The notes under the pieces: model-generated
What the model was told of the DNA's origin: nothing
The model's database searches: none
What the model saw: the letters and a program-made list of their open reading frames with translations, nothing else
Program-made: the position numbers and the translations under genes
Part shown: positions 9,705-51,712 of the stretch, in pieces
How positions within the stretch are numbered: the first letter of the stretch is position 1
Layout of the letters: each line of letters starts with the position of its first letter
NCBI RefSeq assembly: GCF_013122565.1
Contig: NZ_CP053258.1
Strand: one strand, 5' to 3'
From: Escherichia coli
GTDB taxonomy: Bacteria; Pseudomonadota; Gammaproteobacteria; Enterobacterales; Enterobacteriaceae
DNA: 64,000 bases

Positions 9705-9770
9705 AGTGATATTTTACTATCAACCCGAGGCCTCCTATATGCAGAACACATGTAGAGTGCCTCTTACTGA
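9705..9770 (-). ncRNA. sokC: Putative sokC antisense RNA of the hokC/mokC toxin-antitoxin locus
   Basis: Placed by analogy with hok/sok organisation (antisense RNA overlapping the mok initiation region); the boundaries were not determined from the sequence. Confidence 0.3.
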
Positions 9771-9948
9771 CCGTAAGGTCAAGGAGAAGAGAGCAATGAA
9801 GCAGCATAAGGCGATGATTGTCGCCCTCATCGTCATCTGTATCACCGCCGTAGTGGCGGCGCTGGTAACGAGAAAAGACCTCTGTGAGGTTCACATCCGA
9901 ACTGGCCAGACGGAGGTTGCTGTTTTCACGGCTTACGAATCCGAGTAA
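9739..9948 (+). CDS. mokC: MokC, overlapping regulatory reading frame of hokC
   Basis: 69-codon frame (MQNTCRVPLTDRKVKEKRA...) ending at the same stop as hokC. Confidence 0.65.
   Translation: MQNTCRVPLTDRKVKEKRAMKQHKAMIVALIVICITAVVAALVTRKDLCEVHIRTGQTEVAVFTAYESE
9796..9948 (+). CDS. hokC: HokC (Gef) small membrane toxin, type I toxin-antitoxin
   Basis: 50 aa, MKQHKAMIVALIVICITAVVAALVTRKDLCEVHIRTGQTEVAVFTAYESE, matching Hok-family toxin. Confidence 0.9.
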   Translation: MKQHKAMIVALIVICITAVVAALVTRKDLCEVHIRTGQTEVAVFTAYESE

Positions 9949-11182: not shown

Positions 11183-11270
11183 CTTTTTTAAATTGCCCCT
11201 AGATGAATGCACGGGCGGAGAGGAAATTCCCCTTCGCCCGTGTCAGTATAATTACCCGTTTATAGGGCGA

Positions 11271-19675: not shown

Positions 19676-19792
19676 TCAATGTCGGATGCGGCGTGAACAC
19701 CTTATCCGGCCTACAAAAGCATGCAGATTCAATATATTGCAGAATTCACGTAGGCCTGATAAGACGCGCCAGCGTCGCATCAGGCGCTGAAT
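19676..19792. repeat. REP (repetitive extragenic palindromic) elements
   Basis: GCCGGATGCGGCGTGAAC.CCTTATCCGGCCTAC-type palindromes between yaaA and yaaX. Confidence 0.7.
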
Positions 19793-25015: not shown

Positions 25016-25041
25016 GGTTGTTACCTCGTTACCTTTGGTCG

Positions 25042-25077
25042 AAAAAAAAGCCCGCACTGTCAGGTGCGGGCTTTTTT
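25042..25077 (-). terminator. thr attenuator hairpin
   Basis: Minus-strand transcript AAAAAAGCCCGCACCUGACAGUGCGGGCUUUUUUUU between thrL and thrA. Confidence 0.8.
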
Positions 25078-25095
25078 CTGTGTTTCCTGTACGCG

Positions 25096-25164
<69 letters not shown>

Positions 25165-44124: not shown

Positions 44125-44388
44125 ATGATCGATCTGGAAAACCAGGAACGGGAGATTATCAATTTAATGTTCAGCCAGCGTATTTCCTGGCTAGCCGCCG
44201 TGCGTATCAGGCATAAATTATCGCTTGCTGAAGTAAGTAAAATGTTAGGTATCTCGATTAATTCTCTAAAACAGATCGAAAAGACGGAACGGCTTAGCTC
44301 AAACATCAAAAGCAAAATGGCAGAAATTTATGGTTGTCCACCAGAGTTGCTGATATGCCCTTCCTGGATGACGGCTGAACATAAATGA
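44125..44388 (+). CDS. XRE/HipB-like HTH-only ORF; probable remnant of the N-terminal domain of yjjJ (hipH) with the kinase domain absent
   Basis: 87 aa with HTH signature (LSLAEVSKMLGISINSLKQIE). It occupies the lplA-deoD interval, which is about 455 bp here versus about 1.4 kb holding a 443-aa HipA-like gene in K-12 as I recall. Confidence 0.5.
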   Translation: MIDLENQEREIINLMFSQRISWLAAVRIRHKLSLAEVSKMLGISINSLKQIEKTERLSSNIKSKMAEIYGCPPELLICPSWMTAEHK

Positions 44389-44485
44389 ATAGATTCGTGA
44401 ATAGATACTTGAATGTATTTTATTTTCTATCCATATGAAAAATAATAGTAAATCTATAAATCAGTTGCTATTGATGAATAGATAC

Positions 44486-44514
44486 TAAAAACCGGAGCAG
44501 TCCCCCACTCCGGC
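44486..44514 (-). terminator. deoD rho-independent terminator
   Basis: Minus-strand stem CCGGAG..CUCCGG followed by UUUUU. Confidence 0.55.
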
Positions 44515-44547
44515 TTAACACGACAATCGCCTTTCAGCGAAACACAA

Positions 44548-45267
44548 TTACTCTTTATCGCCCAGCAGAACGGATTCCAGTGCGATTTTGATCATGTCGT
44601 TGAAGGTGGTCTGACGCTCAGCGGCAGTGGTCTGCTCGTGAGTGCGGATGTGGTCAGATACGGTGCAGATGGTCAGGGCTTTCGCGCCAAATTCTGCAGC
44701 GACGCCGTAGATACCAGCCGCTTCCATTTCCACGCCGAGAATGCCGTATTTTTCCATCACGTCGAACATTTCGCCGTCCGGAGAGTAGAACAGGTCAGCG
44801 GAGAACAGGTTACCAACGCGAGCATCAACGCCCAGTGCTTTAGCCGCGTCTACCGCGTTACGCACCATGTCAAAGTCAGCGATAGCCGCAAAGTCATGGT
44901 CTTTAAAACGGATGCGGTTAACTTTGGAATCGGTGCAGGCACCCATACCGATAACGACGTCGCGCAGTTTTACGTGTGGCAGAACAGCGCCACAGGAACC
45001 CACGCGGATAATTTTCTTCACGCCGAAATCGGTGATCAGTTCTTTGGTGTAGATGGAGCAGGACGGGATACCCATACCGTGACCCATTACGGAAATTTTG
45101 CGGCCTTTGTAAGTACCGGTGAAGCCCAGCATACCGCGAACGTTGTTCACTTCACGGGCATCTTCAAGGAAAGTTTCAGCAATATACTTCGCACGCAGCG
45201 GGTCGCCTGGCATCAAAACTACGTCAGCGAAATCGCCCATTTCTGCATTAATGTGTGGGGTAGCCAT
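44548..45267 (-). CDS. deoD: Purine nucleoside phosphorylase DeoD
   Basis: 239 aa, [59 protein letters not shown]... Confidence 0.97.
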
Positions 45268-45292
45268 TGTTTTATCCTTATCAACATGTTTT

Positions 45293-45328
45293 CACCCTCT
45301 CCCTGTGGGAGAGGGCCGGGGTGAGGGC
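45293..45328. repeat. GC-rich palindromic intergenic element (boxC-like) between deoB and deoD
   Basis: CACCCTCTCCC-tgt-GGGAGAGGG-CCGGGGTGAGGGC; resembles a dispersed E. coli intergenic repeat family. Confidence 0.4.
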
Positions 45329-45346
45329 ATCAAGCCGCACCCATTA

Positions 45347-46591
<1,245 letters not shown>

Positions 46592-46621
46592 TCAAATTTA
46601 AATGATCAGATCAGTATACCG

Positions 46622-47944
46622 TTATTCGCTGATACGGCGATAGACAGTTGGTGTGCTTTCCGGTGCTTTATCGGCAAGTTTAATTGCCGCTTTCACCGCT
46701 TTCGCCGCTTCCTGCCAGCTGTTTTCGTCTTTCGCGTGGATAACCGCCAGCGGACGCTGACCGTCTACCTGGTCGCCCAGACGCGCCATATCAGTAAAGC
46801 CGACGCTGTAATCGATGGTGTCAGATGCCTGACGACGACCGCCGCCCATTGCAACCACTGCCATCCCCAGCGCGCGGGTATCCATTTCACTGACAAAACC
46901 TTCGGTATCAGCATAGACTGCTTTCGTCAGCATCGCTGTCGGCAGATACTTCGCGTAGTTCTCAACGAAGTCGGTCGGGCCTTTTTGTGCCGCTACCATA
47001 CGACCAAAGACTTCTGCCGCTTTACCGTTGTCCAGCACCGCCTGCAATTTCGCGCGCGCTTCGGCGTCATCTTTCGCCAGTTTGCCGGAGAGCAGCATCT
47101 CCACGCACAGCGCCATCGTGACATCAAACAGACGCGGGTTACGATACTCACCCGTCAGGAACTGCACCGCTTCACGAACTTCAACCGCGTTACCTGCACT
47201 GGAGGCCAGTACCTGATTCATGTCGGTGAGCAGCGCGGTGGTGCGCACGCCAGCGCCGTTAGCCACGCCAACAATCGCTTCGGCAAGGGCTTCAGAGAGT
47301 TCGTAGGTCGGCATAAACGCGCCGCTACCCACTTTCACGTCCATCACCAGCGCGTCCAGACCTTCCGCCAGTTTCTTCGCCAGAATAGAGGCGGTGATCA
47401 GCGGGATTGAATCCACGGTTGCGGTAATATCGCGGGTCGCGTAGAAACGTTTATCCGCCGGAGCCAGTGAGCTGGTCTGGCCGATAATCGCCACGCCGAC
47501 GTCTTTAATAATTTCGCGGAAACGGTTGTCATCCGGGAAAATGTCGAAGCCAGGGATGGATTCCAGTTTGTCGAGCGTACCGCCAGTATGACCGAGGCCG
47601 CGACCGGAGATCATCGGAATATAGCCGCCGCAGGCAGCGACCATCGGCCCCAACATCAGCGAAGTCACATCGCCGACACCGCCGGTCGAGTGTTTATCAA
47701 CAATCGGGCCATTCAGATGCAGGCTTTTCCAGTCGAGAACGGTTCCTGAATCTCGCATCGCCATGGTCAGCGAGACACGCTCAGGCATTGTCATATCGTG
47801 GAAGAAAATGGTCATCGCGAGGGCGGCAATCTGCCCTTCGGAGATAGTGTTGTCGCGAATACCGTTGATAAAGAAACGAATTTCTTCATCGCTCAGCGCA
47901 TGACCATCACGTTTTTTACGAATAATTTCTTGTGCGAGAAACAA
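46622..47944 (-). CDS. deoA: Thymidine phosphorylase DeoA
   Basis: (M)[30 protein letters not shown]... with a TTG start preceded by GGGAGG; 440 aa. The track ORF extends 23 codons upstream. Confidence 0.95.
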
Positions 47945-51444: not shown

Positions 51445-51712
51445 CATGCCGGATACGGCCTACGGTTCGGCACAGACTTGTAGGCCTGATAAGACGCGTC
51501 AAGCGTCGCATCAGGCATTGTGCGCCAACTGCCGGATGCGGCGTGAACGCCTTATCCGGCCTACGGTTCGGCACAAACCTGTAGGCATGATAAGACGCGA
51601 CAAGCGTCGCATCAGGCATTATGCGCCGACTGCCGGATGCGGCGTAAACGCCTTATCCGGCATTGAGCGCCAACTGCCGGATGCGGCGTGAACGCCTTAT
51701 CCGGCCTACGGC
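51445..51712. repeat. BIME / cluster of at least four REP elements
   Basis: Tandem alternating GCCGGATGCGGCGTGAACGCCTTATCCGGCCTAC and GCCTGATAAGACGCG..GCGTCGCATCAGGC palindromes between convergent yjjW and yjjV. Confidence 0.85.

What the first reader, a model, noticed from the sequence alone, without database searches (positions are those of the whole stretch)
45293..45328. GC-rich interrupted palindrome (boxC-like) between deoB and deoD
CACCCTCTCCC-TGT-GGGAGAGGG-CCGGGGTGAGGGC forms a strong hairpin inside the deo operon between deoB and deoD. It resembles the dispersed GC-rich boxC repeat family of E. coli rather than a REP element. Intra-operon hairpins of this type can act as mRNA stabilisers or partial terminators and could modulate deoD expression relative to deoCAB.
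Basis: partly seen in the sequence, partly recalled or inferred. Interest (0 to 1): 0.3.

Follow-up and report, generated by a model that had tools for sequence, protein, structure and literature searches.

The report
Known BoxC repeat between deoB and deoD
The GC-rich palindrome between deoB and deoD is a perfect copy of E. coli's already catalogued BoxC (PIT/TMECO) dispersed repeat; it is present at this spot in about half of sequenced strains, where it replaces an older terminator-like hairpin, and it has no demonstrated function.

Summary
Window + strand 45295-45328 reads CCCTCTCCC-TGT-GGGAGAGGG-CCG-GGGTGAGGGC, inside the 79-bp deoB-deoD spacer; both genes are on the - strand. The 34-mer is identical to BoxC/PIT/TMECO "type B" copies 1 and 4 of K-12 MG1655 (Holder et al. 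2015, PMC4666352).

The copy is strain-variable: 2489 of 5426 complete E. coli genomes carry it. Another 2933 (K-12, O157:H7, ST131) and E. albertii have a 56-bp spacer with an unrelated GC hairpin followed by a T-run that scores as terminator-like. Across 80 Enterobacterales species the same spacer holds BoxC (6), REP (about 15), ERIC (about 10) or a simple hairpin.

In deo mRNA the element folds into a 10-bp hairpin with no U-tract, so it is not an intrinsic terminator. Published tests of these elements found no promoter or terminator activity.

It is most likely a passive repeat that swapped one hairpin for another. Any effect on the deoD/deoB ratio is untested. Interest is low.

The parts
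45268..45346 (-). deoB-deoD intercistronic spacer, 79 bp (long, BoxC-bearing allele)
   Evidence: ORF list and NCBIfam assignments. The same 79-bp spacer is present in E. coli B REL606 and B-LamR.
45287..45340 (.). Full BoxC repeat unit, about 54 bp, shared with other genomic copies. In deo-sense orientation it reads GTGCGGCTTGATG-CCCTCACCCC-GG-CCCTCTCCC-ACA-GGGAGAGGG-TGAAAACA.
   Evidence: blastn hits to other loci cover query positions 7-60, which correspond to window 45340-45287. Alignment with the ilvC-ppiC, hrpB-mrcB and phnD-phnE copies supports the same limits.
45295..45328 (+). TMECO/PIT/BoxC type B 34-mer: CCCTCTCCCTGTGGGAGAGGGCCGGGGTGAGGGC
   Evidence: It is identical to TMECO nos. 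1 and 4 of MG1655 in Table 1 of PMC4666352 and to no. 327 of REL606 at the deoB-deoD spacer. It matches the published family pattern.
45295..45303 (+). Pyrimidine block CCCTCTCCC (hairpin arm 1)
45304..45306 (+). Loop 1 (TGT)
45307..45315 (+). Purine block GGGAGAGGG (hairpin arm 2)
45316..45318 (+). Loop 2 (CCG), which defines 'type B' in Holder et al.
   Evidence: type definition
45319..45327 (+). Third block GGGTGAGGG. Read antiparallel to GGGAGAGGG, it gives 7 G.G-C, 1 T.A-T and 1 A.A-T triads, i.e. no mismatch.
   Evidence: The triads are read directly from the sequence. In vitro triplex formation by type B oligonucleotides is published.
45294..45316 (-). Predicted hairpin in deo mRNA: GCCCUCUCCC-ACA-GGGAGAGGGU, 10 pairs, followed by GAAAACAUGUUG with no U-tract
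   Evidence: RNA fold. The terminator scan finds nothing in the spacer.
45319..45342 (-). Weaker predicted 5' helper helix in deo mRNA: GGGUG.CGG...GCC..CACCC
   Evidence: RNA fold
45275..45279 (-). deoD Shine-Dalgarno AAGGA. It is left single-stranded 14 nt downstream of the hairpin foot and is identical in both spacer alleles.
45347..46570 (-). deoB (phosphopentomutase), upstream cistron
   Evidence: TIGR01696 E 6.8e-210
44548..45267 (-). deoD (purine-nucleoside phosphorylase), downstream cistron
   Evidence: TIGR00107 E 1.9e-127

Best explanation
What it is (shown). This is one complete, single (unpaired) copy of the E. coli BoxC repeat, also published as the PIT element and as TMECO type B. 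It occupies the deoB-deoD spacer, with its G-rich strand on the window + strand and its C-rich strand in deo mRNA. It is one of two alleles of this spacer in E. coli. The other allele, shared with E. albertii and resembling the spacers of several other genera, has a simple GC hairpin followed by a T-run, so the BoxC allele is probably the derived one.

How it works (inferred).
- It is a non-coding, non-autonomous dispersed repeat whose way of spreading is unknown.
- At this site it has replaced the older hairpin rather than simply inserting next to it.
- In the transcript it folds into a very stable 10-bp hairpin that lacks a U-tract and leaves the deoD ribosome-binding site free. It therefore should not terminate transcription or block deoD translation.
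- Its net effect is probably close to neutral. At most it removes a weak termination signal, and it may still shield upstream deoCAB RNA from 3' exonucleases, as REP hairpins do.
- In double-stranded DNA it is most likely ordinary duplex. The in vitro triplex has not been detected in vivo.
For: Identity:
- The 34-mer matches catalogued copies 34/34, and the same locus is catalogued in REL606.
- It matches the family pattern, with none expected by chance.
- The 54-bp unit is shared with three other loci.
- blastn at E <= 0.01 finds a median of 4 and up to 11 places per E. coli genome that has any match. Holder et al. count 20 TMECOs in REL606.

Allele status:
- 2489 genomes carry the BoxC junction and 2933 carry the short allele, out of 5426.
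- The alignment shows the whole spacer interior differs between the alleles, not a simple insertion.

Polarity:
- E. albertii and the GTDB E. coli representative carry the short allele.
- Kluyvera, Kosakonia, Buttiauxella and Pluralibacter have similar GGGCGG...CCGCCC hairpins.

RNA behaviour:
- The fold is -32.1 kcal/mol with the SD unpaired.
- There is no terminator-like site in the BoxC spacer, but there is one in the K-12 spacer.

Literature:
- No promoter or terminator activity was found, and no triplex protection was seen in in vivo DMS footprinting.

Near-neutrality:
- Both alleles are common.
- The coding flanks are ordinary E. coli, with no cluster of changes next to the spacer.
Against: - A stable hairpin is kept at this position in most Enterobacteriaceae, either as a simple stem or as a REP, ERIC or BoxC element. 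That could mean the structure is selected and the swap is not neutral.
- Nobody has measured mRNA stability or the deoD/deoB ratio with and without the element.
- The polarity rests on one close outgroup (E. albertii). E. fergusonii and Salmonella were not retrieved.
- The Pseudocitrobacter faecalis spacer is about 92% identical to this allele over its whole length. That fits an old or horizontally shared allele rather than a recent E. coli insertion.
Confidence: 0.75

Rival explanations
1. One reading: the hairpin is a working intra-operon RNA element. It would act either as a partial terminator or as a 3'-exonuclease barrier that stabilises deoCAB RNA and sets deoD expression relative to deoB.
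For: - The RNA hairpin is very stable.
- Among the 52 of 80 species spacers not flagged as carrying a repeat, 34 have a stable stem (MFE <= -10 kcal/mol) in the first 48 nt, and others carry REP, ERIC or BoxC elements that also fold.
- REP hairpins in operon spacers are an established precedent for exonuclease barriers (from general knowledge, not tested here).
Against: - There is no U-tract and no terminator-like call.
- Published tests of PIT/BoxC elements found no terminator or promoter activity and no effect on RNA polymerase.
- 54% of genomes lack the element here.
- Holder et al. found no positional or functional bias of these repeats relative to genes.
Confidence: 0.18
2. DNA-level reading (Holder et al.): the G-rich strand transiently folds into an intrastrand purine-motif triplex during replication or transcription. 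That would make the site a hotspot of local rearrangement, which would explain why this spacer is polymorphic.
For: - The third block gives nine mismatch-free triads.
- Type B oligonucleotides form triplexes in vitro with Tm about 78 C.
- The spacer is biallelic in E. coli and mosaic across genera.
- A second presence/absence difference (hipH versus an 87-aa HTH gene) lies just downstream of deoD.
Against: - In vivo DMS footprinting gave no triplex signal, and the duplex form dominates once the complementary strand is present.
- Two clean alleles account for 5422 of 5426 genomes, rather than a spread of decayed forms, and sampled BoxC copies are 98-100% identical.
- The coding flanks show no excess change.
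- The hipH difference is not linked to BoxC: O157:H7 has the short spacer but the HTH gene.
- REP and ERIC, which are not triplex motifs, occupy the same spacer in other genera.
Confidence: 0.06
3. The palindrome is a chance or locus-specific palindrome, or a REP/BIME element.
For: Only one copy is present in the 64-kb window.
Against: - It is identical to catalogued BoxC copies elsewhere.
- Several copies occur per genome.
- No matches are expected by chance.
- REP-derived Rfam matches (naRNA4) occur elsewhere in the window but not here.
Confidence: 0.01

Closest known systems
BoxC repeat of E. coli (Bergler et al. 1992; Bachellier et al. 1999) = PIT element (Hoyne and Maher) = TMECO (Holder et al. 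2015, PMC4666352)
   Same: - The sequence is identical (34/34) to type B copies.
- It shares the same roughly 54-bp unit.
- It is intergenic and multi-copy.
- This locus is itself listed for REL606.
   Different: Nothing essential differs. This copy is single rather than paired with an inverted type A copy as at hrpB-mrcB and phnD-phnE. It also has T instead of A after the hairpin and a slightly different 5' part (GTGCGGCTTGATG against GTGCGCGCTGATG).
REP / BIME (PU) elements
   Same: Both are GC-rich imperfect palindromes found in intergenic and intra-operon spacers. REP occupies the same deoB-deoD spacer in about 15 of the 80 species examined. REP is the precedent for RNA hairpins that protect upstream mRNA.
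   Different: The consensus sequence is unrelated, REP has no three-block triplex architecture, and there is no naRNA4/REP match here. REP has known protein partners and a dedicated transposase family (general knowledge); BoxC has none described.
Intrinsic (Rho-independent) terminator or attenuator hairpins
   Same: It is a stable GC stem-loop 3' of a stop codon. The alternative K-12-type allele fits this class.
   Different: The BoxC hairpin is followed by GAAAACAUGUUG, not a U-run. Published assays found no terminator activity.
ERIC / IRU elements
   Same: ERIC is a dispersed enterobacterial intergenic repeat. It fills the same spacer in Citrobacter, Kluyvera, Buttiauxella, Rahnella and Dickeya.
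   Different: ERIC is about 127 bp with an unrelated sequence.

Membership tests
BoxC / PIT / TMECO | Matches 5'-CCCTCNCCC N3-6 GGGNGAGGG N3 GGGNGAGGG-3' (Holder et al. 2015) | tested here: met
   There is one exact match at 45295-45327 (+) and none in 100 shuffles. The pattern is quoted.
BoxC / PIT / TMECO | Sequence identity to catalogued members | tested here: met
   34/34 identity to MG1655 TMECO nos. 1 and 4 and to REL606 no. 327 at 4610112-4610079. That position lies between deoB (ends 4610060) and deoD (starts 4610140).
BoxC / PIT / TMECO | Dispersed and multi-copy within a genome | tested here: met
   blastn of the 67-nt element finds a median of 4 and up to 11 places per E. coli genome that has any match. 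Copies were seen at ilvC-ppiC, hrpB-mrcB and phnD-phnE. Only one copy lies inside this window.
BoxC / PIT / TMECO | Intergenic location | tested here: met
   It lies wholly within the 79-bp deoB-deoD spacer.
BoxC / PIT / TMECO | Extended unit of about 50-56 bp conserved beyond the core palindrome | tested here: met
   54 bp (45287-45340) align with the other copies. The literature gives 56 bp, or a 50-bp HMM.
BoxC / PIT / TMECO | The single strand forms an intrastrand purine-motif triplex | not testable with these tools
   The sequence allows nine mismatch-free triads. In vitro CD and NMR data exist for type B oligonucleotides, and the in vivo footprint was negative.
Intrinsic terminator | GC-rich stem-loop immediately followed by a U-run on the transcribed strand | tested here: not met
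   The scan finds no terminator-like site in 45268-45346 on the - strand. The same scan finds one in the K-12 spacer at L001 462-483.
REP / BIME | REP consensus palindrome | tested here: not met
   Rfam naRNA4 (REP-derived) matches 51483-51706 and 59376-59458 but not this site. A permissive Rfam scan of 44000-47000 gave only two chance-level matches.

The most novel reading that the evidence does not exclude
The swap of the ancestral terminator-like hairpin for a BoxC hairpin may be a working expression polymorphism. Strains with BoxC would read through into deoD more fully, giving a higher deoD:deoB ratio, while keeping a protective stem for deoCAB RNA. More generally, BoxC, REP and ERIC repeats may home to, or recombine into, hairpins that sit just after stop codons, which would make the deoB-deoD spacer a hotspot shared across genera.
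Probability: 0.12. Interest if true: 0.45.

Novelty: already known. Interest (0 to 1): 0.15.

Why it matters
It matters little in itself. The element belongs to a repeat family described in 1992 and catalogued genome-wide in 2015, and this locus is in that catalogue.

The modest added value is a clean natural experiment. About half of complete E. coli genomes, including the laboratory B lineage (REL606; BL21 was not checked), carry BoxC between deoB and deoD. K-12, O157:H7 and ST131 instead carry a terminator-like hairpin. Comparing these backgrounds, or swapping the 56-bp and 79-bp spacers, would be a cheap direct test of whether BoxC does anything to an mRNA. That question has stayed open since the family was found.

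Tried and rejected
- Rfam at a permissive threshold over 44000-47000 gave only chance-level matches (mir-320, SNORD41), and no Rfam family covers BoxC.
- I searched the window for further copies of the core, the half-sites and the family pattern. There are none beyond this one.
- From memory I expected the original BoxC just downstream of fabI in MG1655. That region holds only a plain terminator. The catalogued copy (no. 9, 1351204-1351239) lies upstream of fabI.
- I tested whether the BoxC allele came in as a foreign DNA tract. The 300 bp of deoB and of deoD next to the spacer differ from K-12 at 10 and 2 sites, against 44 and 24 for Pseudocitrobacter, with no clustering at the spacer. No imported tract is visible.
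- I tested whether the nearby hipH/HTH gene difference is linked to BoxC. It is not: O157:H7 has the short spacer with the HTH gene.
- A literature search for a mapped terminator or 3' end between deoB and deoD found nothing relevant. The Esr055 paper is unrelated to this spacer, and the GlnZ paper concerns a Salmonella-specific site in the first deoD codons.
- My regex classification of the 80 spacers was rough. It gave false REP calls for L015, L023 and L068 and missed the BoxC variant in L022. The counts I quote were corrected by eye.

Full report
**Observation**

The two 9-nt arms are perfectly complementary with a 3-nt loop.

The flanking ORFs are deoB (45347-46570) and deoD (44548-45267), with deoA upstream. 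All are on the - strand and were identified with NCBIfam equivalog models. The element therefore lies in a 79-bp intercistronic spacer, and deo mRNA carries its complement: GCCCUCACCCCGG-CCCUCUCCC-ACA-GGGAGAGGG-UGAAAAC.

The core, with up to three mismatches, and the published family pattern each occur once in the window. Neither occurred in any of 100 shuffles. The spacer RNA folds at -32.1 kcal/mol (z = -3.48). The fold contains a 10-pair hairpin and a weaker 5' helper helix, and it leaves the deoD Shine-Dalgarno AAGGA unpaired.

**Identity**

The window is E. coli: 5423 of 5426 complete genomes match the region. The element alone finds further places in most genomes, with a median of 4 and up to 11 at E <= 0.01. 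Copies at ilvC-ppiC, hrpB-mrcB and phnD-phnE share a 54-bp unit with 45287-45340. At hrpB-mrcB and phnD-phnE the unit is paired with an inverted second copy.

Holder et al. 2015 (PMC4666352) treat this motif as the BoxC repeat of Bergler 1992, the PIT element of Hoyne and Maher, and their own TMECO.
- Their family pattern is CCCTCNCCC N3-6 GGGNGAGGG N3 GGGNGAGGG.
- Their Table 1 lists the MG1655 copies. Nos. 1 and 4 are CCCTCTCCCTGTGGGAGAGGGCCGGGGTGAGGGC, type B, identical to window 45295-45328.
- MG1655 has no copy near deo. Their Supplementary Table S8, however, lists no. 327 in E. coli B REL606 at 4610112-4610079 with the same 34-mer.
- In REL606, deoB ends at 4610060 and deoD starts at 4610140, and the spacer sequence equals the window's.

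This very insertion is therefore already catalogued. An independent survey also recovers BoxC as a known E. coli family, given as 56 bp and 32 copies in the literature. Rfam has no model for it.

**A two-allele locus**

Alignment with K-12, O157:H7 and ST131 shows that these strains have a 56-bp spacer whose interior is unrelated to BoxC: TGGATTTGGGCGGAGCGTTGACTCCGCCTTTGTTATGTCACAAA. The stop codon side and the AAGGATAAAAC-ATG side are shared. The difference is a replacement, not a simple insertion.

Junction-specific searches give the following counts:

| Allele | Genomes (of 5426) |
|---|---|
| BoxC allele | 2489 |
| Short allele | 2933 |
| Accounted for | 5422 |

Both alleles occur in phylogroup A: K-12 is short, and E. 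coli B carries BoxC (the phylogroup assignments are from general knowledge). The collection is biased towards clinical and laboratory strains, so 46% is not a population frequency.

The short allele's hairpin plus T-run scores as terminator-like. Nothing in the BoxC spacer does. The short spacer RNA folds at -18.4 kcal/mol.

**Polarity and wider context**

One scan of species-representative genomes with DeoD returned 80 Enterobacterales loci, from which I extracted the spacers.
- E. albertii and the E. coli representative carry the short allele.
- Similar GGGCGG...CCGCCC stems follow deoB in Kluyvera, Kosakonia, Buttiauxella, Pluralibacter and others. The simple hairpin is therefore probably ancestral.
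- BoxC sits in the same spacer, always with the C-rich strand in the sense orientation, in six other taxa: Enterobacteriaceae RIT691, Phytobacter massiliensis, Pseudocitrobacter faecalis, an Enterobacter MAG, Leclercia adecarboxylata and E. cloacae.
- REP elements occupy the spacer in about 15 species and ERIC in about 10.
- Of the 52 spacers in which my regexes flagged no repeat, 34 have a stable stem in the first 48 nt and 14 are short and unstructured. This tally is approximate; the regex calls were partly wrong.

The P. faecalis spacer is about 92% identical to the window's over its whole length, including bases outside the repeat unit. Its coding flanks differ by 8-15%. The window's own coding flanks are ordinary E. 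coli, with no sign of an imported tract. I cannot decide between an old shared allele, a very short recombination patch and parallel insertion.

**How it most likely works**

Shown:
- the element's identity;
- its allele status;
- the predicted RNA hairpin without a U-tract;
- a free ribosome-binding site for deoD.

From the literature: PIT/BoxC elements showed no promoter or terminator activity and no effect on RNA polymerase. Single-stranded type B DNA forms a triplex in vitro (Tm about 78 C). In vivo DMS footprinting gave no triplex signal, and the duplex dominates when the complementary strand is present. The repeats show no bias towards gene classes or operon positions.

Inferred: this copy is a passive repeat that took the place of the older hairpin. 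Its consequences are small. Possibly a weak termination signal is lost and deoD is coupled more tightly to deoB, while a stem is kept that could slow 3' exonucleases as REP stems do.

The stems of family members are almost invariant while the loops vary, and the commonest K-12 subtype keeps a stem mismatch. This pattern fits recent spread or sequence-specific constraint better than selection for base pairing alone.

**Rivals**

Its terminator half is contradicted.
- The instability reading of Holder et al. fits the mosaic nature of the spacer. It fits poorly with two clean, well-conserved alleles, with unremarkable flanks, and with REP and ERIC using the same site.
- A chance palindrome and a REP element are both excluded.

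**Verdict**

The function is unproven and, as a terminator, unlikely. The element and this insertion site are already in the literature, so novelty is nil and interest is low. The useful by-product is a ready-made natural comparison, E. coli B against K-12, for testing whether BoxC affects an operon transcript.

Noticed in passing
L001 462-483 (K-12 deoB-deoD spacer); no counterpart in the window: K-12, O157:H7, ST131 and E. albertii have a GC hairpin plus T-run (GGGCGGAGCGTTGACTCCGCCT TTGTTATGTC) right after deoB that scores as terminator-like. Similar stems follow deoB in several other genera. I found no paper that maps a 3' end there.
   Followed up: partly
L013-L052, about 60-200 bases upstream of position 1501 in each locus: The deoB-deoD spacer is a mosaic across Enterobacterales. 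BoxC occurs in 6 species, REP/BIME in about 15, ERIC in about 10, and simple hairpins in most of the rest. All BoxC copies have the same orientation relative to deo transcription.
   Followed up: partly
L024 1420-1500 (Pseudocitrobacter faecalis): The whole 78-bp spacer is about 92% identical to the E. coli BoxC allele, including bases outside the repeat unit, while the neighbouring coding sequence differs by 8-15%. An old shared allele, a short-patch transfer or parallel insertion could each explain this; it is not resolved.
   Followed up: partly
L049 1372-1500 (Enterobacter cloacae DSM 26481): The spacer holds one and a half BoxC units in tandem. The first unit is truncated inside its hairpin (…CCCTCTCCCTCGAGAGATAC…).
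   Followed up: no
window 44125-44388 (+): Between deoD and lplA the window has an 87-aa ORF; the gene in the corresponding position in REL606, O157:H7 and strain 510016 is annotated as a helix-turn-helix protein. K-12 and ST131 instead have the 443-aa HipA-family toxin gene hipH (yjjJ). This second polymorphism is not linked to the BoxC allele. I did not compare the window ORF's sequence with those proteins.
   Followed up: partly
window 45222-45287 (-): The repeat's GGGAGAGGG arm resembles a Shine-Dalgarno sequence and is followed 7 nt later by an ATG at 45287. That ATG opens a 22-codon frame overlapping the deoD start out of frame. The SD-like arm is buried in the hairpin, so this is probably meaningless.
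   Followed up: partly
window 51483-51706 and 59376-59458: Rfam naRNA4 matches, which are REP-derived repeats, on both strands. They show ordinary REP/BIME clusters elsewhere in the window.
   Followed up: no
window 9646-9798 (+), 11183-11260 (-), 19715-19757 (+), 25041-25160 (-): Rfam gathering-level matches to the sok antitoxin RNA, tpke11, ES036 and the threonine operon leader. All are expected features of this part of the E. coli chromosome.
   Followed up: no
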